A DNA stretch of 64,000 nt from Candidatus Microgenomates bacterium (GTDB lineage Bacteria; Patescibacteriota; Microgenomatia; UBA8517; JACQJR01): positions 167,793 through 231,792 of the forward strand of contig JACQJR010000001.1 in the NCBI GenBank assembly GCA_016204995.1, given 5' to 3'. Below are positions 8,867 through 34,390 of the stretch, one piece after another; within the stretch, counting starts at the first letter, position 1; each line of letters starts with the position of its first letter. The notes under the pieces are model-generated. The model ran no database searches. It saw only the letters and a program-made list of their open reading frames with translations, and was not told the DNA's origin. Position numbers and translations under genes: made by a program.

Positions 8867-8867
8867 A

Positions 8868-13020: not shown

Positions 13021-13021
13021 A

Positions 13022-13459
13022 TCATTTTCTTAAAACCCTGCCGGGATTACCTATTACCACGGCTCCATCTGGAACGTGACGAATTACCACGGCTCCAGCG
13101 CCAATTATAGAATTTTTACCAATCCTCACCGGCAAAATTGTCACATTTGATCCAATTCTAACATTATCTTCAATGAAAGTATTTTTCATTACCCAATTTT
13201 TTGTATTCGGTGAATCATATAAATCATTAATAAACATAACCCCATGGGCTATAAAAACATTGTCACCAACAGTTACGCCTTCGCAAATAAAACTATGACT
13301 GCTAACTCGGGAATTTTTTCCGATCGTCACATTTTTTTGTATTTCCACAAAGGGACCCACAAAAACATTATCACCCAAAACACAACCGTATAGATTCACT
13401 AAATCTGGATAGGGTATTTTAACATCTTTACCCAGCTTAACAGTCTTATCTACGGGCAT
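13022..13459 (-). CDS. Hexapeptide-repeat sugar N-acetyltransferase (WbpD/PglD-like)
   Basis: Left-handed beta-helix repeats VGDNVFIAHGV..IGSNVTILPVRIGKNSIIGAGAVV. Start set at the internal ATG (MPVDK) to remove a 59-nt overlap. The ORF-track start was 13504. Confidence 0.7.
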   Translation of the reverse strand: MPVDKTVKLGKDVKIPYPDLVNLYGCVLGDNVFVGPFVEIQKNVTIGKNSRVSSHSFICEGVTVGDNVFIAHGVMFINDLYDSPNTKNWVMKNTFIEDNVRIGSNVTILPVRIGKNSIIGAGAVVIRHVPDGAVVIGNPGRVLRK

Positions 13460-14465: not shown

Positions 14466-14534
14466 AATTTACCTTTTTTAACAGCCTAGTTTACTTTAAA
14501 CTAAAATTATATTCAACCATGAAAAAATTTACAG

Positions 14535-14885
14535 TCACTTCTTTAAAAAGTAAATTATTAATCCAACAACTAAAAATCCATATACATAATTACCTAATAA
14601 TTCCGCGCTTTCATATTCCCCTAAAAAAATTAGCAATAGAGATATAAACAATAGTAAAAATATCGCCAATAAGATTATTTTTATACTTAGCTTAAAGATA
14701 ATCATAAAAGATGCCATAATCATAAATAGAATTAATTCTTTTTTAATATAGAGATTAAAATAGGGAAGAGTTGGTAAAAGATAAAATAAACCCAATAAAA
14801 AAACAAAACCAATAACTTGATGGCGATTAGTAATAATTTTTTTAAAAAAATATTGTTCCAATTTAACTAACTTATATTTTTTCAT
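14535..14885 (-). CDS. Small hydrophobic membrane protein (hypothetical)
   Basis: Three predicted TM segments. Start set at the internal ATG (MKKYKL), which gives a 4-nt overlap with the upstream giant gene. Confidence 0.3.
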   Translation of the reverse strand: MKKYKLVKLEQYFFKKIITNRHQVIGFVFLLGLFYLLPTLPYFNLYIKKELILFMIMASFMIIFKLSIKIILLAIFLLLFISLLLIFLGEYESAELLGNYVYGFLVVGLIIYFLKK

Positions 14886-17800: not shown

Positions 17801-18421
17801 CATGACTATTAAACCACCATATAATGGCAAACCCCAAATACTGCCGCCGTTAAAAACAAAAAATATAATAGCGGATAGAATGGCTGCTAACAGAATCTCC
17901 ATCTTTCTTGTCAATACTCTCAAGGAAATAGCTAAAAAAATCAGCGTAGCAGATAATAATCCATATTTGGCCCGTTCTAGCATAAAAATTGATTGGAAAA
18001 CATAAAAATTAAAAGTTATGAAAACTGGAAAAATAAAAACAAAAACTTTGCCAAAATTATCTTTGACAGAAAAAGCAAAAACTAATGCTGAAGAGAAAAG
18101 TATTGCCAGCCAGAAAAAGATGAGCAGATAATTACCAGCCGCCTGGTTGCCAGCCAGAATAGTTAAAATATAATCTATAACGTGCAGAGTAATACTGCCA
18201 AAGTTAACTGCATTATCTTGACCAAAATTAAGATGATCATCCCAAGCATAAAAACGACTATTTAAAAATTGTTTTGCATCAAGTGCCAAACCGGAATCAT
18301 GACCAGCTAAAACAAATCCCTCTGGCAGCCAGGACTTAGTTAAAAACCAAAAACCAATTAGGGCAAAGATTAGATAAACTGTGCATAAAGATAAAAATTT
18401 ATTCTTTTTAATTAATCTCAT
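14882..18421 (-). CDS. Giant (1179 aa) polytopic membrane protein, GT-C-like (YfhO/AftD-like architecture) with large extracytoplasmic domain and C-terminal TM anchor
   Basis: About 12 N-terminal TM helices. The first loop, AGHDSGLALDAKQFLNSRFYAWDDHLNFGQD, is acidic-rich. A roughly 650-aa soluble region follows. A terminal TM helix is followed by KRRKRQ. Confidence 0.5.
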   Translation of the reverse strand: MRLIKKNKFLSLCTVYLIFALIGFWFLTKSWLPEGFVLAGHDSGLALDAKQFLNSRFYAWDDHLNFGQDNAVNFGSITLHVIDYILTILAGNQAAGNYLLIFFWLAILFSSALVFAFSVKDNFGKVFVFIFPVFITFNFYVFQSIFMLERAKYGLLSATLIFLAISLRVLTRKMEILLAAILSAIIFFVFNGGSIWGLPLYGGLIVMVLVLLLYTTIWGFLTRKFEQVYKLLTFLVLTLVGYILINSYAILPYLVKLFYGDLSNFFNESITVPNKSWLNYISQSSSFINMFRLQGIPDWYTDQYNINLNHPYAEAYFKDQTLIAVSFLFPVLAFSSLLLVKTTIQRRLISFFVLLIVVVLIFMAGTHPPLGFIYDFLYDKVPGFVIFRTPFYKFGSTFFLSMSVLIGFTLSICSIKIVSFIKNDGLKSISTLFLTIIIIGGWLWYYKPLFSPQVLYWQKSATTKVHIPDYVQDFKNWADNNYTNGRILLLPSLDEGWKVDSYSWGYWSLSTLPSMLTFKNTLANDASLSPEERNWLQELYLSIEQGDKEEKILNLSSRLGINFFLVRNDILADDHLFSLKSPQKFENILSSLIHIKKAKIFGEWTIYKIDSEFNKKIYAISSLVAIPQNYPFLYRSFASNSNIFLVPQKESKSNNIPRDLFSAELTYYQCESCLIENIETNADLPKVRVLPNSPLYLLKKIREKKELLLATNDKEKINVYLGATLRRAGEVKNMLDFREREKYLIGSLKMMNDYLVITHQLLSSTSDPKEDFEKARMIIQILNPIEINLRIELDKARSGTFGENVIQGLTDVLWQIYRIKTFYTPILNDENKWRNEKVFHVNLTEKNSDGLFISTHFLPFDTDGQRIYPKTATLTQENKEWPLKIIKKSEDIIHMESPPGLIGAFTLVVRFDNLPNIFKSHGYKLEQSPSGTISCYYGSIERFDSSLFYKVRISASRKDQALKLFVREDNKEDPQLQYFIKGQRELGIYPILNYQPFTYIYYPSINSKYLNIYVCNENKEKPQIDNVTAEEIFSPFVVLNNESDKKFSIKAPSVDYDKKNPTRYELQLQRSATPFILIFNERFDKLWRLREISNSDEGQNNPFGLIKGLFSKSNKIISNHFIVDGYANGWKVDSLGTGKFVIEYFPQKAFYVGALISIAVFCISFLGIFIYLLKRRKRQ

Positions 18422-19458
18422 AGTGATTTTTCTTTATAACTTTTCAAATTGCCTAAGAAAGTATAAAAATGATACCCAAGGGGGACATTTTTGGAGATAA
18501 TCGGGAAAAATATTCTATCATCAATGGTGCGAATTTTACTTTGAATAAAGTACCTTTTGCGTAAAGTCGCGCTAATATTAATTAAATTCCAGAGTATGGC
18601 TTTTTTAATCGCCCAAGCAATACTAAATTTCCGTCGCAATAAATACATGACTAAAACTATCTCACATAAAAATAAGTGCCAAAGAAAAATTTTAAATAAA
18701 TTTATCGCCCCTAAATTTTTTAGGTAGGAATTAATCCTATTCTTGAATGAGTGATATTGAACGAAAGAATTATCTAGTTTACTACTAGTGGCACCGATTT
18801 TATGATAAATTTTAGAGGAAGGGACAAAAGCAATTTTATATCCGGCCATCCAAACCCGATGGCATAAATCAGTTTCTTCAAAATAGGCAAAATATCGGCT
18901 GTCAAAGATTTCTTTATCCACCTTCACTTTTTCTAACACTTCTCTTTTAAAAATCATCGCTGCGCCTTTGGCTGAATAAATATCAATCTGCCGATCGTAT
19001 ATCTTTGAATCTTTTTTGGCAAAACCATAATGATAAAGAAAACCACTGCTCGTTAAGAATGAACCAACTGCATCAAGTCTTTCTTTATCATCCATAAAAA
19101 ATATTTTACTTTGCACTCCTCCTATGCTTAGATCTGAATTTAGAACCCTTAATAAATTGATTAGGAAGTTATCAGTAACATAAGTATCATTGTTAAGAAA
19201 AAGAATATATTCACCCTTTACAACTCTATAACCAATATTGTTGGCTTCAGCAAAACCTAGATTTTTTTTATTGATAATAATAATGGTTTTAGGGAAGTTT
19301 TTCTTAACATATTCTACCGAACCATCCATAGAGGCATTGTCAACTAAAATTACTTCTATCTTTTTATACTGTTGTTTAAAAAGGGACGGCAAACATTTTT
19401 CTAAGTGAGCCTTTCCATTCCAATTAACAATAATGATAGATACTAGTTTTTTATTCAT
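18418..19458 (-). CDS. GT2 family glycosyltransferase (WbbL/rhamnosyltransferase-like)
   Basis: VSIIIVNWNG...VILVDNASMDGS...LGFAEANN. Confidence 0.75.
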   Translation of the reverse strand: MNKKLVSIIIVNWNGKAHLEKCLPSLFKQQYKKIEVILVDNASMDGSVEYVKKNFPKTIIIINKKNLGFAEANNIGYRVVKGEYILFLNNDTYVTDNFLINLLRVLNSDLSIGGVQSKIFFMDDKERLDAVGSFLTSSGFLYHYGFAKKDSKIYDRQIDIYSAKGAAMIFKREVLEKVKVDKEIFDSRYFAYFEETDLCHRVWMAGYKIAFVPSSKIYHKIGATSSKLDNSFVQYHSFKNRINSYLKNLGAINLFKIFLWHLFLCEIVLVMYLLRRKFSIAWAIKKAILWNLINISATLRKRYFIQSKIRTIDDRIFFPIISKNVPLGYHFYTFLGNLKSYKEKSL

Positions 19459-19463
19459 TGTGC

Positions 19464-21664
19464 TTATGGTCCAAGAAATTCTATATCATCTAGATAAAAT
19501 GTACCGCTGTTTTTTGTACCAATCATATTAAAGGACAGTATAGCAAAGCGGGCATCGGGCGGAGCTTTGGCAGTAACTGATATTTTATACCATTTAGATT
19601 GACCGAAAACTCTAGGTGATAAAGCTATCACCTCTCCTGGTAAATTAATATTGGCATCTTCCTTGTTAAAGAAATCTATCCGTAAAAACCCATCGCGTTC
19701 TACCTCATTTAAAAATCCCACTGGTTTTAACCAACCAGTTAAAGTATAAACCTCTGATGGCGTAACAGAAATTTTTGGACTCATTAGTCTAGGACCGCGA
19801 TAATAAATATTTTCTAAATCATACTCTAAAGAGCCTTTTCCACTATGTCCTTCCTTTAAACTAAAAGAAATATTAATTTTACTTTTATTACCTAATTCCT
19901 CTAAACGCCAAAAATCTTTTTCTTGTTCTTTATCAAAAGAAAATCTTTTAATTAAGTTATTAGCCGTTGGCAAAGAAGTAGGCAAGGCAGAAAAATACAA
20001 GCCAGACATGTCACACATACTATCTCTAGTAAAACTTTTTAATAAGTTTGCCCGACTAAAATATTCCCTCATTGCTAAAGTAACATAATAATTTTGGTAA
20101 AGAGGTTGGGGAATAATAAAAAAATTATTTTCAAACATATAAGTAAAACGTGATAAAATCCCAGTATTAATAAAAAAATAATCAAACTTTCGCTCTTGTA
20201 GTTCTGTTAAAAAGAAATCTGTATCAGGCCTCACTTCCGTAACTTGATAAGATTTTTTGGGTAAGGCAATGGGAGAAACTTGGGCTATTTTTTTATCAGC
20301 TGAAATATTTTCGTTAATCCATTTAACGCTAAATTCATCAGGGCTTACCCCACCGCAAGACCAACTACTAACAACAGAAGTTGTGATTGGGTGATAAAGA
20401 ACCAACCCTGATATGACAAAAAATATCATCATGACATTAACCCTCTTTTTAATTATTTTTCCCAAATTATCCTTAAGATTTAACAAAAAAATAGCCGCGA
20501 ATATTGATAAAAATGGCACCAGTGGTAAATTCAACCTTTCATAAACCGCTGGTATATAAAAAGAGTTATAGATAAAGGTAAATAGAGGAATAATTAGTAA
20601 AAATAAAGTTTTTTTAAGATGACGAAATAAAGATAAAAAAATCCCCCCAATTGATACTAAAGCTAAACCTGGCCCTAAAACTCGAAAGATTAAAAATGAT
20701 GAATGAAATTCTTTAAATCCAGTAGGAATAAGAGTTGATAAACTAGGAATACTAGACTTACCGCCTGAAGAAATATAAGATAGGATAGACGTCATAAAAG
20801 CCGTTATAGAAGTCCCATACCATAAAAACTGAGCTCCAGCTTCTTCTTGCAGAATATGACGACTATCGGCACTAAAGAATAAGTATGGCACACCAATAAA
20901 TATTCCCACGGGAATGGCGAGAAGTCCCAAAGAAAATTTTGATAGTCTTTTTGATAATTTATCTTTATCTAAAAAAATAACAAATGGATAAGCAAGAAAA
21001 GCCAAAGGAAAATATTTTATAGTAGAGGACAAACCAATCAAAAAACCACTAGCCAAATACCATTTCAGGCGGCTAGTAGTTACAGCTTTAACCATAAAGA
21101 GTAATGATAAAAGGATGAGAAAGATAAATGAAACATCGGTGGTAATATAATGAGAATCCCTGACATGCAAAGGGTTTAAGGCGAAAATTAAAGCTGATAA
21201 AAAACCGATTTTTGGATTAAATAATTTTTTAGCGATTAGATAAACGATCAAAACGCTTATTGTGCCAATTATGGCTGTCAATGCTCTACCCTCTAAGAAA
21301 GATAAGGAATTGATATCACTAGTTACATATTCAATAAAATCTATGGCTTTGTTATTGAATGATGTAGGCGGAGGTTGAGAAATTTTTAAATTGGTTAAAA
21401 TTATCCCGATAATCCAAAAGGGAATGTAAACTAAAGATTGTAAATAAAAAATCCAAGAACCATATTTATAAGCATGCGGCTCAAAATCTCCATTTGTAAT
21501 AATGTTATAAAAAAGGGCTTTCGCATGTTTTATAATATAAGCCTCATCTGTATGGGCAATATTAGGAACTAGACCGATAAAGCGAACCAGTAGGGCAACA
21601 GCAAGAATGATAAATAAAAGCTTATTATTTTTTAAAGCACGCCGAATTCCCCTCATTAGCATTA
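19464..21664 (-). CDS. GT-C glycosyltransferase, PMT/ArnT-like (group A) with C-terminal CBM-like beta-sandwich domain
   Basis: The loop-1 motif AHTDEAY carries the conserved Asp-Glu. NPLHVRDSHY follows. About 12 TM helices. C-terminal GFLRIDFF...W.K...APP...F...YLDDIEFL is shared with 24921..27164 and 32236..34386. Start placed at MLMRG (complement 21664). The ORF-track start was 21803. Confidence 0.6.
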
Positions 21665-21711
21665 GGCGTATTATACTAGATTTTAATCGTGTATAATATC
21701 TAACATAAATT

Positions 21712-22779
21712 ATGCCAATAACAAAAACTAGTTTAGTTTCCTGTGTAAAAGTAAAAGTTGGAAAAGATCCTAAATTAGTTTTTAAGGCTGTTGCCCAAGC
21801 CATGAAGCTTGCGCATTGGGAAAAATATGTTAAGGGGCGTAATATTGTTTTAAAAGTGAATGTGGTGTGGGATAAACTTTACCCTAGTTGTACTACTACT
21901 CCCATGGTAATAGAAGGAGTCATAAAAACATTGCTCCAGAAGTTTCCCAATGCTAAAATCACCATTGTTGACACCGATACTCCTGGAATCATGCATGCCC
22001 ATTACTCCTTTAGGAATTTAGGTATTAATTACATGGCTAAAAAGTACGGCATCAAGACTGTCAATCTTACCAATACCAGCTTCCGCACCGTCAACCTTAA
22101 CGGCGAAAAACTTAAAAAATTTAAAGTAAGTAAAGTTCTACTTGATGCAGATACAATTATTACCATTCCCGTGATGAAGACCCATTCTATCTCAACAGTA
22201 TCATTGAGTCTTAAAAATCAATGGGGATGTATTCATGATTTAAGACATAACTTTCATCTCTATTTAGCCAAAGCCATCGGGGACGTAAATAATTTTTATA
22301 AAAAGAAGGTTTCGTTTGTAGTTATGGACGGATTATTTGGCATGGAAGGGAAGGGCCCAAAGAATGGAAAACCAGTTAAGGTAGGATTTATTTTTGCTTC
22401 ACCTGACCGCGTAGCTCTTGATACTCTGGTTGCCCAATCCATGGGGTTTGACCCCCAAAAGGTTGATCATATAACTCATTGCCAAAACTTAAAAATTGGC
22501 ACTATGAACTATAAAATCGTTGGGTCAAAACCACCCAAGATGAAATTTGCCAGTCCCCATGATTTTCAGTTAACCTTTTGGGTAGAAATGTTTTTGAGAA
22601 AACTTGGGCCATTTTATGAAAAATTATTTTTCCAAACGAATATTCTTTACCCTTTACGCCTGGCAGCCAGAGTATACAATGACATTTGGTACTATTTTAT
22701 TGGAAGTAAAAACAAGGACAGGATGATGAAAACAGATTTTGGTCAGATGTGGCAAGAATACTTAAATAATGCTTCTTGA
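21712..22779 (+). CDS. DUF362-like domain protein (hypothetical)
   Basis: [21 protein letters not shown] resembles the conserved DUF362 core. Confidence 0.35.
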
Positions 22780-22804
22780 CTAAAATTAGTAAATTGACTA
22801 CATT
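22776..22804 (+). promoter_or_regulatory. Putative promoter (-35 TTGACT, 17-nt spacer, -10 TACATT) upstream of the ATG at 22818
   Basis: Read from the sequence. The -10 box is weak. Confidence 0.3.
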
Positions 22805-22817
22805 ACAAGTAATTAAA

Positions 22818-23951
22818 ATGCCAAAAAACGGTGAGCTAAAAAAACACCCCGCCACAAAATATGCACTCATCACTGGATGCTCTGGGCTGGTTGGCTCGGG
22901 AGCTGTCCGTTTCTTCTGTGAGCGAGACTTTCAAATAATCGGCATAGATAATAATTTTAGAGAGTACTTTTTCGGTAAAGATGCTAGTACGGATTGGATG
23001 AGAAGACAACTTGAGGAAAAATATCCCAAACAGTTCCAACATTTTTCTATTGATATTCGCGATTACCTAACTCTTGAGCAAATTTTTAAAAGATTTAATT
23101 TTGAATTAGTAATTCATACTGCTGCTCAACCCTCTCATGACTGGGCGGCTCGCGAACCTTTAACAGATTTTTCCATTAACGCCGTCGGCACCTCCAACAT
23201 GCTTGAGTTAACTAGATTATATGCTCCTAATTCTGTTTTCATCTTCACCTCTACTAATAAGGTATACGGGGATTTACCCAATGAACTTCCTCTTATTGAA
23301 CTAGAAAAACGTTGGGAAATTAAGCCTACGCATAGATACTCTCGCGGCATTGATGAAACAATGGATATAGATAATAGTGTTCATAGCCTTTTTGGTGCCT
23401 CAAAAGTGGCAGCCGATGTGCTTGTCCAGGAATACGGAAAATATTTTGGCTTGAAGACGGGGGTGTTTAGAGGCGGTTGCCTCACAGGTCCAGCCCACTC
23501 CGGCACTATGCTCCATGGCTTTTTAGCCTATCTTGTTAAAGCAATCGCCAAGGGAATTCCCTACACCATCTTTGGATACAAGGGAAAGCAAGTTAGGGAT
23601 AACATCCACTCCTCCGACCTTATCAATGCCTTTTATCATTTTTACCAAAATCCCCGTCCTGGTGAAGTCTATAATATGGGTGGATCTCGCCACTCCAATG
23701 TTTCTATGCTGGAGGCAATCGCGAAAATCGAAAAATTACTTAAGAAAAAAGGCAATATAAAATATTCTGATGATAATAGAACTGGAGATCATATTTGGTA
23801 TATTTCAGACGTTTCAAAGTTCAAAACTCACTATCCTAATTGGAATTACAAATATGATGGAGACCAAATATTAGAAGAACTATGTAAATCTATGGTGGAT
23901 AAAAGCTATTCTGTCAAAAAAGAAGAAGCCTTTGTAATTAACGAAAGGTAA
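22818..23951 (+). CDS. NAD-dependent sugar epimerase (SDR family; CDP-paratose/tyvelose 2-epimerase-like)
   Basis: [12 protein letters not shown] Rossmann motif. YGASK. Start at MPKNGE. The ORF-track start was 22776. Confidence 0.6.
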
Positions 23952-23958
23952 AATAAAC

Positions 23959-23982
23959 TACTCCGTAGTAAACTACGGAGTA
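23959..23982 (+). terminator. Perfect 10-bp stem / 4-nt loop hairpin (TACTCCGTAG-TAAA-CTACGGAGTA) 8 nt after the stop codon; candidate intrinsic terminator lacking a strong U-tract
   Basis: Inverted repeat read directly from the sequence. Confidence 0.35.
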
Positions 23983-24060
23983 TCCCTTAGGAAAAGTTTG
24001 ATCACTGCTTCGCTAACCCCCGCAGCAGAGCTGCGAGGTATTCGCTAAGTTTGACTAAAT

Positions 24061-24089
24061 TTGCATTTCTATTAAAAACGGTCTATAAT
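24061..24089 (+). promoter_or_regulatory. Putative sigma70-like promoter (-35 TTGCAT, 17-nt spacer, -10 TATAAT) 9 nt upstream of the ATG at 24099
   Basis: Consensus -10 box. No Shine-Dalgarno. Confidence 0.4.
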
Positions 24090-24098
24090 TTTTTTACT

Positions 24099-24860
24099 AT
24101 GCAAGAAAATTTGAAAGGTGGCGAAAATTCCCGTATAGAGGACTTGCCGGTACCAGAATTTAATCTCACAGATGAACAAAAGTTGATATTAACCGGCGTA
24201 GCTGACTGGGTCAGTAATTTTTTTAAAAACGCCGAAGAAAATAACCGTGTGGTTATGGGAGGACACGGTTTTGACCATAATCAGCGTACTGCAGGGATAG
24301 CAGCCGTAATCGCCACACGCGAAGGCTATTCTCCCTTTCTACCAGCGTTGACGAGTTTGATATTTGATATTGGCAGAACCAGTACTGATCCTCGAGCGCA
24401 TAACTTTCGCCATGGAGAATTAAGCCGTGAGATGGCACACGATTTTATTATAGGATTACCTTTAGCGGATGAAGAGAAAACCTTAGTATTAAATGCGATT
24501 GAAGATCACCCCAAACTTAATGATCAGATAGTAGGAGAAAGAAGAAACTGGCTACAAATGATTTTGCAAGATGCCGATAGATTAGATACACTTGGACCGA
24601 TTGGGATAGCAAGAGCCAGCTCCAATCGCTGGAGACTACCACTATTTTCCGATCAAATTGCCATAGGAACCCCTGAAGATACCATAACTACAAGTTTCCA
24701 GGATTATGCTTATCGCGTCCCCGTATGGATTGAGTCTATGTGGACAAAAACCGGTTTAGAGATTACACAAGCTAGAATGCCATATATGCAAGCTGCAATA
24801 GCTGAAATAAGAAAAGAAGCTCAATATATGCATGATGCTTTCGGCAAACTCTTTGAATAA
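24099..24860 (+). CDS. HD-domain superfamily protein (variant: FDIGR in place of the HDLGR motif)
   Basis: GFDHNQRTAGIA (His), LIFDIGRTS and QDADRLDTLG (Asp) match the HD-domain layout. Paralog of 6159..7727 and 53336..54709. Start chosen at the ATG that follows the promoter; the ORF-track start was 24051. Confidence 0.45.
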   Translation: MQENLKGGENSRIEDLPVPEFNLTDEQKLILTGVADWVSNFFKNAEENNRVVMGGHGFDHNQRTAGIAAVIATREGYSPFLPALTSLIFDIGRTSTDPRAHNFRHGELSREMAHDFIIGLPLADEEKTLVLNAIEDHPKLNDQIVGERRNWLQMILQDADRLDTLGPIGIARASSNRWRLPLFSDQIAIGTPEDTITTSFQDYAYRVPVWIESMWTKTGLEITQARMPYMQAAIAEIRKEAQYMHDAFGKLFE

Positions 24861-24884
24861 TTCTCTCCTTCTCTACATCTCTAA

Positions 24885-24913
24885 TTGATGCAAATAATCG
24901 GATAAGTTATACT
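24885..24913 (+). promoter_or_regulatory. Putative promoter (-35 TTGATG, 17-nt spacer, -10 TATACT) ending 7 nt before the GTG start at 24921
   Basis: Read from the sequence. Confidence 0.3.
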
Positions 24914-24920
24914 GCCTGTT

Positions 24921-27164
24921 GTGAGGAGAAAAATTAGATACTTTGCCGACCAAATTTTTAAAAAGAAAAAGGCAATAACATTAATCTTTATCTTAGGGCT
25001 AAGCCTTAGGCTTCTAGGTACCTATCCCGGTTATCCCCTCACCCATCCTGATGAATCAACTATCCAAACTGCCTCTATTGAAATTGCTTTTAAGGGCAAT
25101 TTCTTAACCAAGGCTTATTATTACGGACAGTTGTTACCGCTTATTTATGCCTTTAGTTACCTTTTTTACCTTCCTCTAGCAGCTATTTTCTTTTTACCTA
25201 ATCTTATTACCACTCGGGGTCTAAATCATTTCGGAGAAGAATTTTATAAATTTCTTACCCAAGGTTTCCCTCTACACCAACAAACATTTTGGAGTGTTAA
25301 TTATTGGGCAAGGTACGATAGCGCCATTATTAGCTCTTTAACTATTATTGTTGCCTACTTATTGGGAAAAAAATTATTTAATAAACATATTGGTTTAACA
25401 GTTGCCTTTTTAATTGCTATTAATTACCGACATGTTTTAAGCAGTAGATTAATTTTAGCTGATGCACCGGCAGCCTTTTTTGCGATACTGGCCGTTCTTT
25501 TATTTACTAGGCTTTTACAAAAAACATCTTTAAAAAACTATCTTCTAGCTGGTGTGGGTTTGGGTTTATCCTTATCTGTAAAATATTTTATTTATGTCAT
25601 TCCGGCTTTTTTATTATGCCATCTTTCCTCTTCCTTAAAAACAAAAGGGAATGTGTTAATAAGATTGGTAAAAGTTATTACAAATTATAAATTATTTTTA
25701 TCAGTTCTTACGGCAGTAATTTTACTATTAATTATTAATCCCTATTTTTTATTTGCCCAAAAAGAAGCCGCTTATTATTGGATAGCCAATTCTGCCAGAT
25801 ATGGCTTAAGATTTTCTCTAGAGACACTGCAAAATAATAATTTTTCCTTCTACTCTCTTTACTATTTATTTTATTACGGCTTAAGTCCAATCATTAGTAT
25901 TCTTACTATCTTAGGCTTTATCTGGAGCTTTATTCGTTATCCTAAGGCAGCATTGATTATCTCTATTGTTATCATTCCCTATCTTTATACTTTTTTAGTA
26001 ATTTCTGGAACAGGCATTGTCAGAAACTATGCTGCCATTATTCCGCTTCTATTATTTTTCCCTGCTGTAATTATTGCTGACTTAATTTTATTTTTGCACC
26101 GAATTAAATTTTCTACCATCATTATCACCTTATTAATCTTAACTATCGGCTACCAATCATTAAAATATAGTCTAACTAGCGGATATTATTTGACTCAAGA
26201 GCAAAATATGATTTCTCTTTACAAGTGGATGGATAAAAATTTACCAGAGGATAGCAAAATTATTGGTTCAAGTGGCATCTTCTATCCTGCTGGTCGTAAT
26301 TTTGAGGGAATTAAATTAGATGTCAATTTAAATAACCTAATGAGTATGGAAGAGTTGCAAGAGCAACCAACTCCCTGGCTTATTTTTAGTTCTATCCCTC
26401 AAGATGTGACAGAAAACTTTCTATTGAATAATGAAATTGCCAGAAAATCTTTTATCAGCAATTTCTTGCCTTCATATCTTACTAATAATACTTATAACAC
26501 TCTAGTCTTTAAGGAGCTAGCAGATTTTAGGGTAGCAGAATTTGCCAAACCTTTAACTCAAGATCCCCCATTTATGGTAATTAAAATCCCGCAGTTTGAC
26601 CAAGCTAAAAAAGAGACAACAGTAGCCAGATTTAAATTTACTAACTCTCAACAATTAAATAATTGGTCTTATAATTTCTATCCTACTGATACTTATCAAT
26701 ATACATATGAAAATGGCGTTGTTAATTTCACCCAAAAAACTCCTCAATGTAATACTTTACTTACCCAACTATCTTCAGATAAAACTTATATTATCCCAAA
26801 CCAATGGTATAGCCTCAAAGCTTTAGCCAAACGACAAGCTAATAGTATTTACCAAAGAGCCAGGAATGGATTTTTTAGATTAGATTTTTATGACGGAAAT
26901 GACAATTTAATTAAAACCTATGTCACTCATCCACTTAATTCTAATGTAGGCTGGCAGAAACTATCGGCTGCCGGAATTGCACCGCCGTATGCTACTTATG
27001 CCAAAATTACCTTTCAGATTGATGCCTGTTTTGAGGAAGAAAGCTATAGCTTTAATAACATCACTCTTTTTACTACTAAACAAATACCTAGTATTGACAC
27101 AACCACCTATCATTTCTATATGCAACCCGCGCCTAGTAGTTTTTACTGGTTACCCCAACTTTAA
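24921..27164 (+). CDS. GT-C glycosyltransferase, PMT/ArnT-like (group A) with C-terminal CBM-like domain
   Basis: Loop-1 motif THPDEST. AINYRHVLSSRL. Multi-TM. C-terminal FFRLDFYDGND...GWQKL...APPYATYAKITFQ. GTG start. Confidence 0.6.
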   Translation: MRRKIRYFADQIFKKKKAITLIFILGLSLRLLGTYPGYPLTHPDESTIQTASIEIAFKGNFLTKAYYYGQLLPLIYAFSYLFYLPLAAIFFLPNLITTRGLNHFGEEFYKFLTQGFPLHQQTFWSVNYWARYDSAIISSLTIIVAYLLGKKLFNKHIGLTVAFLIAINYRHVLSSRLILADAPAAFFAILAVLLFTRLLQKTSLKNYLLAGVGLGLSLSVKYFIYVIPAFLLCHLSSSLKTKGNVLIRLVKVITNYKLFLSVLTAVILLLIINPYFLFAQKEAAYYWIANSARYGLRFSLETLQNNNFSFYSLYYLFYYGLSPIISILTILGFIWSFIRYPKAALIISIVIIPYLYTFLVISGTGIVRNYAAIIPLLLFFPAVIIADLILFLHRIKFSTIIITLLILTIGYQSLKYSLTSGYYLTQEQNMISLYKWMDKNLPEDSKIIGSSGIFYPAGRNFEGIKLDVNLNNLMSMEELQEQPTPWLIFSSIPQDVTENFLLNNEIARKSFISNFLPSYLTNNTYNTLVFKELADFRVAEFAKPLTQDPPFMVIKIPQFDQAKKETTVARFKFTNSQQLNNWSYNFYPTDTYQYTYENGVVNFTQKTPQCNTLLTQLSSDKTYIIPNQWYSLKALAKRQANSIYQRARNGFFRLDFYDGNDNLIKTYVTHPLNSNVGWQKLSAAGIAPPYATYAKITFQIDACFEEESYSFNNITLFTTKQIPSIDTTTYHFYMQPAPSSFYWLPQL

Positions 27165-27885
27165 GAGGAAAACCAAAATATTTATACCTCAGGGATTTCA
27201 TAAAAACTTTAAAATAGCCTGGTCCCACTTTTAAGACTTTAAAATTGCTTATTCCCATTCCTTTGGTTCTTTCAATCCAGCTAACTGGAACTTCCTTAAT
27301 ATTATAGCCAAGTAAAATGGCGTAAATCCCAATTTCCGCATTGATGGAAAATCCCGGGCTTTCCAGGTAAGGCTTTAAATCATCAATAATTTGCTTTCTA
27401 TAAAATTTAAAATTATTAGTTACATCCCACTGTCTCATTCCCAAGATGGCTTTAGCTAAGATATGAAAAGATCTATTGGCAATTTTCTTAGGCCAAGCAT
27501 ATCCTTCCAATCTTCCTCCTTTAATAAATCTGGCACCCACTACCCCGTCTGCTTTCTCTCCAGCTTTGACTAATTTTTTAATATCAATAGTATTTTTAGT
27601 GAAATCGCAATCAAGTAGTAAAACATGCGTTGCTTGATCTGAAATTGCTTTTAATCCTTCTCTGATGGCATTTCCTACGCCGCCATTTCTTTTTCTATGC
27701 ACCACAGTCAGTTTTGGATATTTTTTTTTCAGTTTATCCAGAATTTTGCCAGTACTATCTGTACTACAATCATCAACTACTACAACTTGCATCAGATTTT
27801 TTCCTAAATTACCAAACAGAAGTCGTGCCATGTTTTTTATATTTCCCTCTTCATTATGCGCTGGAATGACTACTGAAATTTTCAT
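27133..27885 (-). CDS. GT2 family glycosyltransferase, Dpm1-like
   Basis: ISVVIPAHNEE...VVVVDDCSTDST...NGGVGNA. Confidence 0.75.
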   Translation of the reverse strand: MKISVVIPAHNEEGNIKNMARLLFGNLGKNLMQVVVVDDCSTDSTGKILDKLKKKYPKLTVVHRKRNGGVGNAIREGLKAISDQATHVLLLDCDFTKNTIDIKKLVKAGEKADGVVGARFIKGGRLEGYAWPKKIANRSFHILAKAILGMRQWDVTNNFKFYRKQIIDDLKPYLESPGFSINAEIGIYAILLGYNIKEVPVSWIERTKGMGISNFKVLKVGPGYFKVFMKSLRYKYFGFPLKVGVTSKNY

Positions 27886-29513
27886 AGGTTAAGATCTATT
27901 TTTTTAAGTTCTTTTGATGAAAAGTCATAAAATAAAGCATTGACTTGATTTTTTGTGAGATGATAATCTTTAATGGTCTGGCGCAATTTATGTTCATCAC
28001 TAAAAAATCCAAAACCTAAACTAGCTATTTCTTTATAACCTTCCGTATTTAAATTCCATAAAAATTTATCTTTTATTAATTGACTAGGTATTTTACCAGT
28101 TTGGTAATACCAAATCATTAAGGTATAACCCATACCTTGTTGAAAGGGGACATGATTACCTACTAGGTAAAAATCATGATTACCTGTTATATAAAATATA
28201 TTCTTATTATTATCAAAGGTTGGTTTTAGACGAGATAATTGCGATAATAAACTTCTTCTTTCCTGACTAACAGCGATCAAATCCATTAATGATTTATTTA
28301 AATACTTTAGATGAACCACTAAAAATAGTCCTACCAGGAAAATTGCGACCATACCCAATCTCCATCTATTTAAATATTTGTTTAAGGAAAAAACTGTTAA
28401 TCCCAATATTATTCCCGAAGGTAAGTTGGACAGATAATAATACCTTGATTCAAGATAGGCAAAACTTTTACTTAGTAAAACATAAGGCAGAAAACTTAAT
28501 ACGAAAAATGCTACCCAAAAGATAGCATGCTTTTTGATAGTTATAGATTCTTTTCTAACGGCTAAATAGAAAATAAACAGGATGATTAAGGTTAGAGCAA
28601 CAGCAAATAAATCTATCACTACTGTTTGAACAATAATATTAAAATGCTCCGAAGGAAAAAGGGGATAATAAATATTAGTAAAAAATTTCGCAAAATTTAT
28701 CAATAATTCTTGAGGAATAAAAGTCAGAGATAAGGAAGTTAATGGATAGAAAAAAAATCTCGTGATAATTGTAGGGATATTATTAGTGGTGGAAGAAGAG
28801 ATAAACAATTCTGATGAGCGATCAACCGACAAAAACCAGGTTAGTCTTGTTATAGCGATGGAAAAAAATATAAATAAAAATGGCCAAAATTTTTTAAAGA
28901 AATCTCTCCATGATAATCTGTTGTAGAGTAAGGCACCTAGAGGCATTAATAGAAATAGAAATATTCCTATCTCCTTGAAGAAGAGTGAAATATAAAGAGT
29001 TAATAAAGAAACATACAGCCACTTAATCTTTAAGTTAGATAAATAGTTAAAATAAAGTATTAGTGACGACAAAATTAAAGTTACTGCTACCAGGGTACCT
29101 AAGGAAGTACCAAACCAGGAAACAGCACTATGAGAAACGCTAGAGATGGTAAAAAATAAAGTTCCTATAGAAGCAAATAAACTATTTTTAATAATCCATT
29201 TTCTAACTAAATAAAAAACCAATAAAGAATTAGCTGTATGGAAAAATATGCTGTACAAGGCTATAGCGCTAGTATTAAAAGATAACTTTCCAAAAAAAAT
29301 ATAGCTTAGGAGTATAGAAGCAAATCTATCTTGGGCGACTAAAAGTTTAGCGGGAGTTAAGTTATCAAAAATTTCCGTAAAATTTTTTAATATGATATTA
29401 TTACCAATATTCTGCCATTCATCTTGTTGATAAAAAACTTGTGTAAGGCCGCTATAAACCAAAATAGTAATTAATGATAAGAAAATAAATGGGGGTAAGA
29501 AGGCCTTACTCAT
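27882..29513 (-). CDS. Polytopic membrane protein with C-terminal soluble domain (hypothetical; possible GT-C/polymerase-like)
   Basis: About 12 hydrophobic helices followed by a roughly 150-aa hydrophilic tail. Confidence 0.35.
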   Translation of the reverse strand: MSKAFLPPFIFLSLITILVYSGLTQVFYQQDEWQNIGNNIILKNFTEIFDNLTPAKLLVAQDRFASILLSYIFFGKLSFNTSAIALYSIFFHTANSLLVFYLVRKWIIKNSLFASIGTLFFTISSVSHSAVSWFGTSLGTLVAVTLILSSLILYFNYLSNLKIKWLYVSLLTLYISLFFKEIGIFLFLLMPLGALLYNRLSWRDFFKKFWPFLFIFFSIAITRLTWFLSVDRSSELFISSSTTNNIPTIITRFFFYPLTSLSLTFIPQELLINFAKFFTNIYYPLFPSEHFNIIVQTVVIDLFAVALTLIILFIFYLAVRKESITIKKHAIFWVAFFVLSFLPYVLLSKSFAYLESRYYYLSNLPSGIILGLTVFSLNKYLNRWRLGMVAIFLVGLFLVVHLKYLNKSLMDLIAVSQERRSLLSQLSRLKPTFDNNKNIFYITGNHDFYLVGNHVPFQQGMGYTLMIWYYQTGKIPSQLIKDKFLWNLNTEGYKEIASLGFGFFSDEHKLRQTIKDYHLTKNQVNALFYDFSSKELKKIDLNL

Positions 29514-29583
29514 AACTTAATTATGATAAATTGTAGCAGAATATTCACAACAGACAAACTTTATGTTAGGATAGAGAACATTA

Positions 29584-30846
29584 GTGTATCCTATGAAAAA
29601 ATTAAATAAAAGACCTAATAACTTCCGCCCTAAAAATAAATCATTCTATTCTACAAGTCTAAAGTCCTTATACAAGGCTCATATTACCGAAGGCGAATCT
29701 GTTTTAGAATTTAGCTATGGAATAGAAAATGTGCTGGATGATCTTAATCTTAAAAAAAATCACGCAAGAATAGATATAAGTCGTAAAGTAAAGCCACTAA
29801 AAACGAGAACTAAATTTGACCGAATTATTATACATAATCTTGTAGAGTATGTCTTTGATGTTCAGTTAATCATTGAACGGGCTAGAAGACATATTAAGTC
29901 TGATGGTTTACTTATTCTCTCATCCATCAATCCCCTATGGAAAACATCATTTAAACCTGAAATAAGGAAAAATTGGCAACATACTATATCTCTAAAACAT
30001 CTAATCAGCATAGTTAAGCTAGCAGGATTCCAGATTGAAAAATCAGGTTATCTTATGCCTAAGCTATCCAAATTAGGCGCAATCCAATATCTAGTAGCAA
30101 AACCGCTAACTGCTATGAAAAAAGATCCATCAGTCAGCATCGTCATACCCTGTTACAACGAAGAAGATAATGTTGTAGAAACAGTAAAACAAGCTCCTAA
30201 ACTTGGTAGATTTACAGAAATTATAGTGGTAGATGATGCTTCTAAAGATAAAACTAAGGAAGTAGCAGAATCCTTGAGGAAAAAGTATAAAAATCTCAAA
30301 GTTGTTTCTCGCAAATTAAATGGCGGTAAGGGGCCCGCAGTTAAATCTGGTATTGATGCCGCCAAAGGAGATATCTTGATTATCTGGGATGCGGATAGAA
30401 CTGTACCAGCCAGTGAACTGTATCGTTTTTACGATGCATTAGCGTTGGGTTTGGGACAATTCTCCAATGGCACCCGCATGATCTATAGAATGGAAGGTGA
30501 GGCTATGAGACCATTGCATGTTTTAGGCAATACAGTCTTTGGCTGGCTTTTTAGCTGGATCTTTAGCAATGGCATTAGTGATACACTTTGTGGTACCAAA
30601 GCTTTATTTATGAAAGATGCTAGAAAAATAGAAATGGGCAAGGAAAGATGGGGAGATTTTGATTTATTATTTGGAGCAGCCAGACTTGGTTTAAAAATAG
30701 CCGAGGTGCCTATTCACTATAAATCCCGTGTAGCTGGAGAATCAAAAATGCGAACCTTCAATTATGGCTTTAAGGTAGGTAAAATGGCATTATCAGGTAT
30801 GATTGAATTTAAAATAAAGCCTATTCTAAAAACACTAGTTAGCTGA
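29584..30846 (+). CDS. Fusion: degenerate class I SAM-methyltransferase-like N-terminal domain plus C-terminal GT2 (Dpm1-like) glycosyltransferase
   Basis: N-terminal VLEFSYG (degenerate GxGxG) and FDRIIIHNLVEYV...IKSDGLLIL (MTase post-II motifs). C-terminal VSIVIPCYNEE...IIVVDDASKDKT...IWDAD. Confidence 0.55.
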   Translation: MYPMKKLNKRPNNFRPKNKSFYSTSLKSLYKAHITEGESVLEFSYGIENVLDDLNLKKNHARIDISRKVKPLKTRTKFDRIIIHNLVEYVFDVQLIIERARRHIKSDGLLILSSINPLWKTSFKPEIRKNWQHTISLKHLISIVKLAGFQIEKSGYLMPKLSKLGAIQYLVAKPLTAMKKDPSVSIVIPCYNEEDNVVETVKQAPKLGRFTEIIVVDDASKDKTKEVAESLRKKYKNLKVVSRKLNGGKGPAVKSGIDAAKGDILIIWDADRTVPASELYRFYDALALGLGQFSNGTRMIYRMEGEAMRPLHVLGNTVFGWLFSWIFSNGISDTLCGTKALFMKDARKIEMGKERWGDFDLLFGAARLGLKIAEVPIHYKSRVAGESKMRTFNYGFKVGKMALSGMIEFKIKPILKTLVS

Positions 30847-30987
30847 TAGTTATCTTCAAAACAATTCTGCTTTTTGCTAATGAAGCTCCACGGCTAAATT
30901 CTTAATTACCTTCTTTGGCTGATAAAATTAACTGAAATAGGGGATTGACATTATCTTCCATAAAATATTTAATGATATACATTAATA

Positions 30988-32199
30988 ATGGAAAGATCTA
31001 CCTTCACAGATGCTAAATCTAAACTTGAATACCATCCTCAAACTGTTGAACGCCTATTAAACAACGAACCCGTTATACCAATAAGTATGGAAGTAGATTT
31101 ATCATACTTTTGCGGTGATCAATGTACGTTTTGCCACTTTTCCTACACCCACCAGAAACCCGTTAGAACCGATGCTCTTCTCCCTATCTTAGAGAAAGTT
31201 TTCATGCCCCCCAAGCTGGCCGATGAAGTATTGAGAAAAATGAACGAAGCCGGAGTTAAATCAATTGTTTTTTCTGGAGGGGGAGAACCTACTGATAGCC
31301 CTTTCGCTTTGGAAATTTTTAAAATGGCTAAATCTTACAATCTGGAGTTAGGGATGTACACTAGGGGATTTAACCTAAAAGGTGAACTAGGAGAATTTGT
31401 GGCTAATAACTTTGAATGGGTGGTGGTCTCGCTAGATGTGACTAATCCGGAAGAGCATAAACTTATCAAAGGCACTAATGGGAAAATATTTTTGGAAAAG
31501 TTGGAAAACATCCATAACTTTTTGAAAATACCTAATCGGCATGCCAATATTAGTGTTAGCGCCATGGTGGATACCGGCCACCTAGAAAATGTACCGCCAT
31601 ATCCGGAACAGCAAGATTTATTTGGAACAGATGCCACCCAAGTTACTAAATTAGAACGGGATATGCTTTGGTTATTGGGGTTAGGCGCTGATGAGGTACA
31701 GATTAGACCAATTATAGATACCGGATCATATAAAGAGCAAAGAGAATCTCACCAAATGAAGGGGATGGCTTTTATGACTGATAAACAAATCTGGCAGGAA
31801 CATTATAGTTGGATTCCTAAAGTAGTATCAATTCTGGAAAGATATAATAGTCTAGCTGGCCTAAATACGTCAATAGATAAATTTCATCAAGTCTATGAAG
31901 GGGAAAGTGGAGAGGAGACATGTTATGGTATGGTAATATCAGCTGGTTTGGTTGCCAGTGATGGAAAAGTCTACAAATGCGTCAACACACGATCTATTCC
32001 GGAAAAAATTATTGGCGATTTAAAAACCCAATCCATGGAAGAGATTTTTCTTTCCGAATCTTTAGATCGCTCCATTGATAGTTTTTGCAGGGTCGGATGT
32101 CGAGGATGTAAAGTCAATGAAGTTTTTAATAGACTATCTCATTCCGAAACAGTATTCTTATCACCACGACAAGGTGTCAAACATCCCAATTTTATTTAG
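30988..32199 (+). CDS. Radical SAM enzyme with C-terminal auxiliary-cluster (SPASM/twitch-like) cysteines
   Basis: Canonical CGDQCTFC (CX3CXFC). FSGGGEPT GGE motif. C-terminal C-x18-C...CRVGCRGC. Confidence 0.65.
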   Translation: MERSTFTDAKSKLEYHPQTVERLLNNEPVIPISMEVDLSYFCGDQCTFCHFSYTHQKPVRTDALLPILEKVFMPPKLADEVLRKMNEAGVKSIVFSGGGEPTDSPFALEIFKMAKSYNLELGMYTRGFNLKGELGEFVANNFEWVVVSLDVTNPEEHKLIKGTNGKIFLEKLENIHNFLKIPNRHANISVSAMVDTGHLENVPPYPEQQDLFGTDATQVTKLERDMLWLLGLGADEVQIRPIIDTGSYKEQRESHQMKGMAFMTDKQIWQEHYSWIPKVVSILERYNSLAGLNTSIDKFHQVYEGESGEETCYGMVISAGLVASDGKVYKCVNTRSIPEKIIGDLKTQSMEEIFLSESLDRSIDSFCRVGCRGCKVNEVFNRLSHSETVFLSPRQGVKHPNFI

Positions 32200-32235
32200 T
32201 AAAAACGTTTAATTTACTATGACTTAAAAAAGTTT

Positions 32236-34386: not shown

Positions 34387-34390
34387 AAAA

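What the first reader, a model, noticed from the sequence alone, without database searches (positions are those of the whole stretch)
24051..24860. Three dispersed HD-domain paralogs; one has FD replacing the catalytic HD dyad
6159..7727 (N-terminal domain), 24099..24860 and 53336..54709 share the (L/I)(L/F)(H/F)D(L/I)GR core and flanking His/Asp positions. The 24099 copy reads LIFDIGR. Loss of the metal-binding His suggests a non-catalytic or altered-metal paralog. Three HD proteins scattered through a glycosylation island and co-transcribed with GT genes hints at a conserved but unassigned role, such as nucleotide release or recycling, or signalling.
Basis: partly seen in the sequence, partly recalled or inferred. 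Interest (0 to 1): 0.5.

Follow-up and report, generated by a model that had tools for sequence, protein, structure and literature searches.

The report
HD-fold enzyme lacking its signature histidine
A small protein in a sugar-coat gene island of an uncultured ultra-small bacterium belongs to a metal-dependent phosphate-cleaving enzyme family. It has lost one of that family's hallmark metal-binding histidines and kept every other active-site residue, so it is most likely a re-tooled enzyme, not a dead one.

Summary
The core observation holds. Window 24099..24860 (+) encodes a 253-aa all-helical protein of a Candidatus Microgenomates bacterium, annotated as hypothetical. It is a clear but divergent relative of the YpgQ/YedJ/2PQ7 group of HD-domain phosphohydrolases. 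Its F89 (codon 24363..24365) sits exactly where those proteins have the His of the HD dyad.

This is a clade trait, not an accident. In about 127 outgroup representatives the His is invariant. In the roughly 60-member in-group it is F/Y/M/I/A/V in 45, and the state changed at least three times. H56, D59, R63, D90, G92, R93, H105 and H137 stay invariant in the non-His members, and the DADRLD motif and R172 nearly so.

The residues kept are those of HD "site 2" (motifs II, III and IV), where the solved relative 2PQ7 binds a metal. The residues lost belong to "site 1".

In-group genes lie in glycan-biosynthesis clusters in 10 of 11 loci. A true-HD outgroup member does not.

"Three paralogs" is overstated. 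A and C are only remote relatives. B is linked only through the Pfam HD model.

I read A as a metal-site-remodelled phosphohydrolase serving glycan synthesis. Its substrate is unknown. It is a new variant of a known kind, of moderate interest.

The parts
24099..24860 (+). Gene A: 253-aa divergent YpgQ/YedJ-like HD-fold protein (NCBI HY404_00980, annotated 'hypothetical protein'). The mechanical ORF starts at TTG 24051.
   Evidence: 100% identical to P0001. (profile E 2e-20 to solved HD hydrolases). (AF2 pLDDT 93.6). (Foldseek top hits 2pjq, 3dto, 5dqv).
24258..24278 (+). Motif I region GGHGFDH (residues 54-60). H56 matches YpgQ H25. H60 matches YpgQ H29, a site-1 metal ligand that is Lys in one sub-clade.
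   Evidence: YpgQ ligand list from PMC8177086.
24357..24377 (+). Motif II LIFDIGR (residues 87-93). F89 (ttt, 24363..24365) replaces the His of the HD dyad. D90, G92 and R93 are invariant.
   Evidence: sequence..
24411..24413 (+). H105, the motif III His and a predicted site-2 ligand. It is invariant in the in-group and 95% conserved in the outgroup.
   Evidence: Site-2 definition from PMC3727216.
24507..24509 (+). H137, the motif IV His and a predicted site-2 ligand. It lies within the in-group-specific EDHPKLN motif. K139 tracks loss of the motif II His.
24570..24587 (+). Motif V DADRLD (residues 158-163). D160 matches YpgQ D124, a site-1 ligand.
24612..24614 (+). R172, matching YpgQ R136 (a ribose contact). 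It is conserved in 98% of non-His members.
   Evidence: PMC8177086.
24060..24089 (+). Promoter-like TTTGCA-18-TATAAT, 9 nt upstream of ATG 24099. This is a consensus match only.
   Evidence: Three sites were found and 3.3 are expected by chance, so it is weak evidence.
23959..23982 (.). 10-bp-stem hairpin in the 147-bp gap between the SDR gene and gene A.
22776..23951 (+). Upstream neighbour: an NAD-dependent epimerase/dehydratase (SDR). Its ortholog (68% identity) lies two genes upstream of the A-type gene in L001.
24921..27164 (+). Downstream neighbour: a PMT-type GT-C glycosyltransferase, 60 bp after gene A on the same strand.
14882..19458 (-). AftD-like GT-C (14882..18421) and GT2 (18418..19458). 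Homologs of this pair sit directly downstream of A-type genes in L004 and L005, and nearby in L006 and L091.
6159..7727 (+). Gene B: 522 aa, an N-terminal HD domain (LLHDLGR at 6471..6491) fused to a HAD-like C-terminal half. It belongs to a separate family from A.
53336..54709 (+). Gene C: 457 aa from a very rare family. Its HD-like motifs are SESH..H, LLHDLGR (53699..53719), LHHD and DxDRRQ. It is a remote relative of A's family.

Best explanation
Gene A encodes a soluble HD-fold protein descended from the YpgQ/YedJ/2PQ7-like phosphohydrolases. These carry the extended H..HD..H..H..D motif.

Shown:
- In a clade that appears restricted to Microgenomates-type ultra-small bacteria, the His of the HD dyad has become dispensable. 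It has been replaced several times by hydrophobic residues (F in this genome). This His is a ligand of metal site 1, which is formed by motifs I, II and V.
- In one sub-clade the motif I His is also replaced, by Lys.
- The Asp of the dyad (D90) and the two extra His (H105, H137) are invariant. Together they form site 2 (motifs II, III and IV). So are H56, D59, R63 and R93, and the DADRLD motif and R172 are nearly so.
- The clade sits in glycan-biosynthesis clusters, next to SDR epimerase/dehydratases, UDP-glucose dehydrogenase, GT2 and AftD-like GT-C genes.

Inferred:
- The protein is still a metal-dependent hydrolase, with its chemistry centred on the site-2 metal.
- Site 1 is either weakened (H60, D90, D160 plus water) or, in the Lys sub-clade, functionally replaced by a lysine.
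- It acts on a phosphorylated intermediate or by-product of glycan synthesis (a nucleotide, nucleotide-sugar or sugar-phosphate), not as a housekeeping (d)NTP pyrophosphohydrolase.
For: Homology and fold:
- Profile E 2e-20 to 7e-15 against 2qgs, 2pq7, 3dto, 3djb, 5dqv, 3b57, 2pjq and 3gw7.
- Single sequence against YpgQ, E 7.5e-6.
- AF2 pLDDT 93.6. Foldseek top 14 hits are all from this group.

F89 sits at the His of HD.

Conservation:
- All 127 outgroup sequences have H60 and H89.
- In the in-group (60 sequences), position 89 is non-His in 45.
- H56, D59, R63, D90, G92, R93, H105, G106 and H137 are 100% conserved in the non-His set. D158, D160 and R172 are 96-98%.

Repeated change: at least 3 H/non-H changes in 100 of 100 bootstrap NJ trees, mode 6.

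Metal-site logic:
- Site 1 = motifs I, II, V and site 2 = motifs II, III, IV. A metal is seen at site 2 in 2PQ7 (PMC3727216).
- The extended motif is diagnostic of a two-metal site (PMC8177086).
- In OxsA the His of HD can be replaced by water as a ligand.
- New in-group residues flank the site: E135, D136 and K139 beside H137, plus R99 and R148.

Context:
- 10 of 11 in-group loci, at 38-60% identity to A, are glycan clusters.
- The true-HD outgroup member P0042 sits with NUDIX, acetyltransferase and PolX genes.
Against: - No biochemical data exist for any in-group member.
- I could not read coordinates of the model. The geometry of D90/H105/H137, and the positions of F89 and K139, are therefore inferred from motif logic and the solved relative, not measured.
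- YpgQ itself uses only site 1 (Mn bound by H29, H58, D59, D124). By analogy with the one characterised relative, loss of H58 would be expected to be inactivating.
- The substrate is unknown. Neighbouring gene types vary between loci (SDR, Ugd, GT2, GT4, DegT), so no single pathway step is implied.
- The NJ trees are poorly resolved at depth, so the number of independent losses is uncertain.
Confidence: 0.5

Rival explanations
1. Non-catalytic pseudoenzyme. The HD fold survives as a nucleotide- or nucleotide-sugar-binding regulator or scaffold for neighbouring glycan enzymes. This would resemble the inactive hydrolase domain of RelA.
For: A canonical metal ligand is lost, and two are lost in the K60/M89 sub-clade. 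Pfam's HD model falls below its cutoff. R172, the equivalent of the ribose-contacting R136 of YpgQ, is kept. The operon-like placement beside enzymes would suit a partner or regulator.
Against: Pseudoenzymes usually show general decay of catalytic residues. Here H56, D59, D90, H105, H137, D158, D160 and R93 are 96-100% conserved across lineages only 38-60% identical, and new charged residues have been fixed around them. A complete site-2 ligand set remains.
Confidence: 0.2
2. Functionally unchanged housekeeping enzyme. It is still a YpgQ-like (d)NTP pyrophosphohydrolase using site 1, with water or a neighbouring residue filling in for the missing His. The glycan-cluster location would then be incidental.
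For: Three of the four YpgQ ligands remain in A: H60, D90 and D160. In OxsA the same His can be swapped for water. R172 is kept.
Against: The sub-clade with K60 plus M/I89 keeps only two site-1 ligands, yet it is equally conserved elsewhere. The outgroup's basic residue at 135 is replaced by Glu-Asp, and the outgroup residue at the position of YpgQ H158 is replaced by Gln/Asp, which suggests a changed substrate pocket. The glycan-cluster context recurs in 10 of 11 diverged loci but not in the true-HD relative P0042.
Confidence: 0.22
3. Artefact. The FD would be a misalignment, a sequencing error, or a sign of a decaying pseudogene.
For: Pfam HD scores only 19 bits, below its cutoff.
Against: Three independent alignments place F89 at the His column. 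His to Phe needs two nucleotide changes. F is shared by more than 20 homologs from independent assemblies. The ORF is intact and the model confident.
Confidence: 0.02

Closest known systems
Bacillus subtilis YpgQ (PDB 5DQV/5DQW), a Mn-dependent (d)NTP pyrophosphohydrolase
   Same: Same fold (Foldseek TM 0.81 normalised to the target). Detectable sequence homology (E 7.5e-6). Shared GH..H..R, xD, DADRLD..G and R136-equivalent motifs.
   Different: YpgQ binds one Mn through H29, H58, D59 and D124. A has F at the H58 position. A also has two extra invariant His (H105, H137) that did not align with His in YpgQ. Identity is only 18-20%. YpgQ is a housekeeping-type gene, whereas A's clade sits in glycan clusters.
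PDB 2PQ7, a predicted HD hydrolase from an uncultured Thermotogales bacterium (structural genomics, function unknown)
   Same: It is among the best profile hits (E 6e-20). It shares HDxxR, the motif III His ('DHAESG' against 'HGELS') and the motif IV His. A metal is observed at site 2 (PMC3727216).
   Different: It keeps the full HD dyad. It lacks the in-group signature residues (FLP, DPR, EDHPKLN).
E. coli YedJ (PDB 3GW7; NCBIfam NF007515 / PRK10119 phosphohydrolase)
   Same: Homologous (profile E 7e-15). It is the only NCBIfam model touched by A (E 4e-4).
   Different: A scores 20 bits against an equivalog cutoff of 286, so it is not a YedJ ortholog. YedJ keeps HD.
OxsA (HD-domain oxetanocin phosphohydrolase)
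   Same: It is a precedent that the His of the HD dyad can leave the metal and be replaced by water while the enzyme stays active, and that the number of bound metals can change (PMC8177086).
   Different: In OxsA the His is present and only moves. OxsA is a different subfamily with no site-2 His pair.
Inactive (pseudo-)hydrolase HD domain of RelA (from my own knowledge, not tested here)
   Same: It is an HD-fold domain that has lost canonical catalytic residues and serves a non-catalytic role.
   Different: In A's clade all the other active-site residues are under strong conservation. That is not the pattern of a decayed domain.

Membership tests
HD-domain superfamily (Pfam PF01966) | All-alpha HD fold superposable on solved HD proteins | tested here: met
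   AF2 pLDDT 93.6. The top 14 Foldseek PDB hits are YpgQ/YedJ-type HD hydrolases, E 1e-6 to 2e-4, TM 0.72-0.82 normalised to the target.
HD-domain superfamily (Pfam PF01966) | Score at or above the Pfam gathering cutoff (22 bits) | tested here: not met
   A scores 19 bits and C 17.2 bits. B scores 28.7 bits and passes. In-group homologs that keep His do pass, for example the L089 protein at 40.7 bits.
HD-domain superfamily (Pfam PF01966) | H...HD...D metal-ligand motif complete | tested here: not met
   H60, D90 and D160 are present. The His of the dyad is F89.
YpgQ/YedJ-type HD phosphohydrolases (solved: 5DQV, 3GW7, 2QGS, 2PQ7, 3DTO, 3DJB, 3B57, 2PJQ) | Significant full-length sequence homology to members | tested here: met
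   Profile E 2e-20 to 7e-15 over about 200 residues. Of 1.84 billion representatives, 5071 match at E<=1e-3, and A's clade forms the top-scoring block.
YpgQ/YedJ-type HD phosphohydrolases | NCBIfam NF007515 equivalog cutoff (286 bits) | tested here: not met
   20 bits, E 3.9e-4.
YpgQ/YedJ-type HD phosphohydrolases | Mn-dependent (d)NTP pyrophosphohydrolase activity | not testable with these tools
   Needs an enzyme assay. Only YpgQ itself has been characterised (PMC8177086).
Two-metal HD proteins (extended H..HD..H..H..D motif) | All six motif residues conserved | tested here: not met
   A has five of six (H60, D90, H105, H137, D160) and lacks H89. The K60/M89 sub-clade has four of six. Nearly all of the 127 outgroup sequences have all six (H60, H89, D160 100%; D90, H137 98%; H105 95%).
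Two-metal HD proteins (extended H..HD..H..H..D motif) | Site-2 ligands (motif II Asp, motif III His, motif IV His) present | tested here: met
   D90, H105 and H137 are 100% conserved in the in-group. The site-2 definition, and its occupancy in 2PQ7, come from PMC3727216. The geometry in the model could not be measured.
HD-fold pseudoenzymes (RelA-like inactive hydrolase domains) | General decay of catalytic and metal-binding residues under relaxed constraint | tested here: not met
   Only position 89 varies (plus position 60 in one sub-clade). The other active-site positions are 96-100% conserved.

The most novel reading that the evidence does not exclude
A's clade is a previously unrecognised type of HD-fold enzyme. 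Catalysis has moved entirely to metal site 2 (D90, H105, H137). Site 1 has been filled by a hydrophobic residue and, in one lineage, by a lysine standing in for the metal. The clade performs a dedicated, so far unassigned step in the surface-glycan pathways of ultra-small (CPR) bacteria, for example hydrolysis of a nucleotide-sugar or a phosphorylated sugar intermediate.
Probability: 0.3. Interest if true: 0.6.

Novelty: new variant of a known kind. Interest (0 to 1): 0.45.

Why it matters
The HD dyad gives this very large enzyme superfamily its name, and its His is treated as an essential metal ligand. Here a natural clade has discarded that His repeatedly while freezing the rest of the active site. 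That offers a ready-made test of whether site 2 alone can support HD-fold chemistry.

The clade is currently invisible to annotation. Pfam scores it below cutoff and NCBI calls it 'hypothetical protein'.

It also marks an unassigned soluble component that recurs in the large glycosylation islands of CPR bacteria, whose surface glycans are thought to matter for their episymbiotic lifestyle. The practical gain is modest until a substrate is found.

Tried and rejected
- The genome-contig scan with the family alignment was saturated by the ubiquitous DADRLD motif. It returned only distant relatives (at most 35% identity) from Flavobacteria, Bacilli, Thaumarchaeota and others. It says nothing about the in-group beyond showing that the wider family is broad.
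- The metagenome scan with the single protein found nothing. A second scan with a truncated in-group alignment gave only 4 loci.
- The AF2 model of C (4 sequences) was too poor (pLDDT 62), and its Foldseek search was meaningless.
- The afdb50 fold library was unavailable.
- Model coordinates are not exposed. I could not measure the D90/H105/H137 geometry or locate F89 and K139.
- Literature searches for HD pseudoenzymes, for HD proteins in nucleotide-sugar pathways and for YedJ gave nothing usable. The YedJ search hit an author's name.
- Rejected: misalignment, sequencing error or pseudogene (see rivals).
- Rejected: 'three close paralogs from local duplication'.
- Considered and dropped: a MIOX/PhnZ-like diiron oxygenase role (A lacks a site-1 His), and a polyprenyl-phosphate phosphatase role (A is soluble; no transmembrane segment is apparent in the all-helical globular model). 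Neither could be tested.

Full report
**What is at the coordinates.**
The window comes from a Candidatus Microgenomates (CPR/Patescibacteria) bacterium. The product of 24099..24860 (+) is 100% identical to NCBI HY404_00980, a 'hypothetical protein' on a 609,565-bp contig. The mechanical ORF begins at TTG 24051. The NCBI model and the N-termini of homologs fit ATG 24099 instead.

B is 6159..7727 (+, 522 aa). C is 53336..54709 (+, 457 aa; the mechanical start is 53300).

**Is the motif real?**
- A reads LIFDIGR (24357..24377; F89 = ttt at 24363..24365).
- B and C both read LLHDLGR.
- About 0.002 matches are expected by chance in the window's ORFs.
- Each motif lies within a Pfam HD match: B 28.7 bits (above the 22-bit cutoff), A 19 bits and C 17.2 bits (both below it).

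**Is F89 homologous to the His of HD?** Yes, on four lines of evidence.
1. A profile of 42 homologs hits the solved YpgQ/YedJ-type HD hydrolases (2QGS, 2PQ7, 3DTO, 3DJB, 5DQV, 3B57, 2PJQ, 3GW7) at E 2e-20 to 7e-15. It pairs 'alifDiGR' with their 'LLHD'.
2. The single sequence hits YpgQ at E 7.5e-6 with the same register.
3. In the family alignment, His-bearing members occupy that column.
4. The AF2 model is confident (pLDDT 93.6), and its best Foldseek PDB matches are the same proteins (TM 0.72-0.82 normalised to the target).

YpgQ's Mn ligands are H29, H58, D59 and D124, with H25 and R136 nearby (PMC8177086). After allowing for the 6-residue tag offset seen, they map as follows:

| Residue in A | YpgQ equivalent |
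|---|---|
| H56 | H25 |
| H60 | H29 |
| F89 | H58 |
| D90 | D59 |
| D160 | D124 |
| R172 | R136 |

**The variant is a clade property.**
- A search of 1.84 billion representatives with the family profile found 5071 relatives. There is a sharp score drop after a small top block.
- I aligned all retrieved sequences to the profile.
- All 127 outgroup sequences have His at positions 60 and 89. Nearly all (95% or more at each position) also have H56, R63, D90, H105, H137, D158, D160, D163 and R172. Together these include the extended H..HD..H..H..D motif.
- In the in-group (60 sequences, 38-77% identical to A), position 89 is F, Y, M, I, A or V in 45 and His in 15.
- In those 45, H56, D59, R63, D90, G92, R93, H105, G106 and H137 are 100% conserved. 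D158, D160 and R172 are 96-98%.
- A nested sub-clade also has Lys at position 60, always together with M or I at 89.
- NJ trees built without the scored columns need at least 3 H/non-H changes in 100 of 100 bootstrap replicates (mode 6). The Lys state needs 1-2 changes. Deep resolution is poor, so the exact count is uncertain.
- The simplest reading is that this one His became dispensable in the clade and was lost repeatedly.
- Residues fixed specifically in the in-group include FLP (80-82), D97, R99, E135-D136 and P138 beside H137, N141, R148 and W215.
- K or R at 139 accompanies the non-His state. Most members that keep His, and the outgroup, have F there. A few His-bearing members (P0019, L089) already have K139.

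**What this implies for mechanism.**
- HD domains have two metal sites. Site 1 is formed by motifs I, II and V. [quoted passage not shown]
- A metal has been observed at site 2 in several structures, including 2PQ7 (PMC3727216). 2PQ7 is one of the closest solved relatives of A and shares the extra His residues.
- The six-residue extended motif is considered diagnostic of a two-metal site (PMC8177086).
- In A's clade the losses hit only site-1 ligands: H89, and sometimes H60.
- The complete site-2 set (D90, H105, H137) is invariant.
- In OxsA the His of the dyad can be replaced by water as a ligand, so losing it need not abolish metal binding.
- I therefore infer a still-functional metal hydrolase centred on site 2, with site 1 weakened or, in the Lys sub-clade, replaced.
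- This step is inference. I could not read model coordinates, and no in-group member has been assayed.

**Genomic context.**
The window itself is one large glycosylation island. By my count from Pfam scans of the ORFs up to 58961 it holds:
- ten GT2 genes
- two GT4 genes
- six GT-C genes (PMT, PMT_2 or AftD-like)
- six SDR genes
- three stand-alone DegT aminotransferases, plus one fused to an SDR
- a formyltransferase
- hexapeptide acyltransferases
- methyltransferases
- radical-SAM proteins
- an NTP-transferase

Adjacency here alone therefore means little. In other genomes, however, in-group genes again lie in glycan clusters:

| Locus | Neighbours of the A-type gene |
|---|---|
| L001 | After two SDRs, one a 68% ortholog of window 22776..23951 |
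| L003, L006, L093 | Before UDP-glucose dehydrogenase plus an SDR |
| L004, L005 | Before GT2 plus an AftD-like GT-C, homologs of window 18418..19458 and 14882..18421 |
| L008 | After a GT4 |
| L089 | With DegT, a methyltransferase-GT2 fusion and methyltransferases; this member keeps His |
| L091 | With an AftD-like GT-C and a GT4 |

Only L090, a 3.5-kb contig, shows no such neighbour. A true-HD outgroup relative (P0042, about 30% identity) sits with NUDIX, acetyltransferase and PolX genes instead. The glycan association thus belongs to the in-group as a whole, and at least one example shows it together with a retained His.

**The 'three paralogs' claim.**
- BLASTP finds nothing among A, B and C beyond the motif.
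- Profile-profile comparison links A's family to C's at 71% probability (E 3.8e-5). It aligns LIFDIGR with LLHDLGR, HGELS with HHDQLS, and DADRLD with DxDRRQ.
- It does not link B to either.
- B is an HD plus HAD-like fusion with 19 homologs. Its own dyad His is also not fixed: N, E or G in 4 of 19.
- B homologs sit beside NTP-transferase, DegT, formyltransferase and the same hexapeptide-GT2 fusion as in the window.
- In L093 a B-type N-terminal half lies 2.3 kb from an A-type gene.
- C has only three homologs among 5.8 billion proteins. One lies between GT4 and PIG-L genes, near STT3. Its fold could not be confirmed.
- So there are three separate HD-like families, each tied to glycan clusters, not three recent paralogs.

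**Transcription.**
A shares its strand with the upstream SDR and the downstream PMT-type GT-C. It is separated from the SDR by 147 bp holding a hairpin (23959..23982) and a promoter-like TTTGCA-18-TATAAT (24060..24089). The gap to the GT-C is 60 bp. The promoter scan is no better than chance expectation (3 found, 3.3 expected), so co-transcription remains open.

**Verdict.**
- A is a new variant of a known kind: a YpgQ/YedJ/2PQ7-like HD-fold protein from a glycan-cluster-associated clade. That clade has repeatedly dropped the signature His and kept site 2 intact.
- Most likely it is a remodelled metal phosphohydrolase acting on a phosphorylated nucleotide or sugar species (confidence about 0.5).
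- Rivals: a ligand-binding pseudoenzyme (about 0.2), and an unchanged site-1 NTPase (about 0.2).
- Interest is moderate at 0.45. It would rise if site-2-only catalysis or a defined glycan-pathway step were demonstrated.

Noticed in passing
window 6159..7727 (gene B) and its homologs P0193-P0210: B's own HD dyad is not fixed either. The His is N in P0194 and P0199, E in P0207 and G in P0210. Motif I 'WEH' also varies (WRD, WEY). The HAD-like C-terminal half carries FD[VI]G[DN]VL instead of the canonical DxDx[TV].
   Followed up: partly
L093:216-4150: An A-type gene (P0038) is followed by UDP-glucose dehydrogenase and an SDR. Next comes a convergent 288-aa gene (P0211) that is a stand-alone B-type N-terminal half, 36% identical to window B residues 1-288. 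So A-type and B-type genes are near neighbours in another genome.
   Followed up: partly
window 7670..8866 (-), overlapping B's 3' end by 58 bp (7670..7727): A hexapeptide-acyltransferase + GT2 fusion recurs next to B homologs in L094 and L095, together with two DegT aminotransferases. L094 also has a formyltransferase. This suggests a conserved amino-sugar acylation and transfer module.
   Followed up: partly
window 53336..54709 (gene C): This family is extremely rare: only 3 homologs (39-43% identity) among 5.8 billion proteins. It has many invariant residues (SESH..H, LLHDxGR, LHHD, DxDRRQ, WWPK). AF2 could not fold it with confidence.
   Followed up: partly
window 24513..24515 (K139 of gene A): Positions 139 and 89 change together. 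Non-His members have K or R at 139 (DHP[KR]LN). Most members that keep His, and the outgroup, have F there. P0019 and L089 have both His89 and K139, which hints that K139 arose first.
   Followed up: partly
window 1..58961: Every region scanned is a glycan-biosynthesis island. By my count it holds ten GT2, two GT4, six GT-C (PMT/PMT_2/AftD-like) and six SDR genes, three stand-alone DegT genes plus one DegT fused to an SDR, a formyltransferase, two radical-SAM proteins (one with a SPASM domain), three GFO/IDH/MocA oxidoreductases, and two large F5/8 type C (discoidin) domain proteins at 34391..36832 and 38253..40751. ORFs beyond 58961 were not scanned.
   Followed up: partly
window 55298..57769 (-): An 823-aa fusion joins a Polysacc_synt_2 (PglF/CapD-like 4,6-dehydratase) domain to a DegT aminotransferase in one polypeptide.
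   Followed up: no
window 21712..22779 (+): A DUF362 protein (150 bits) overlaps the start of the SDR gene by 4 bp, directly upstream of the SDR and gene A. It was not seen next to A-type genes in the other loci.
   Followed up: no
L097:1-1980: The basal in-group member P0035 keeps His. It is followed by a fragment weakly resembling a dTDP-sugar 3,5-epimerase (PF00908, E 2e-4) and preceded by a weak methyltransferase match. This hints that the sugar-pathway link predates loss of the His.
   Followed up: partly
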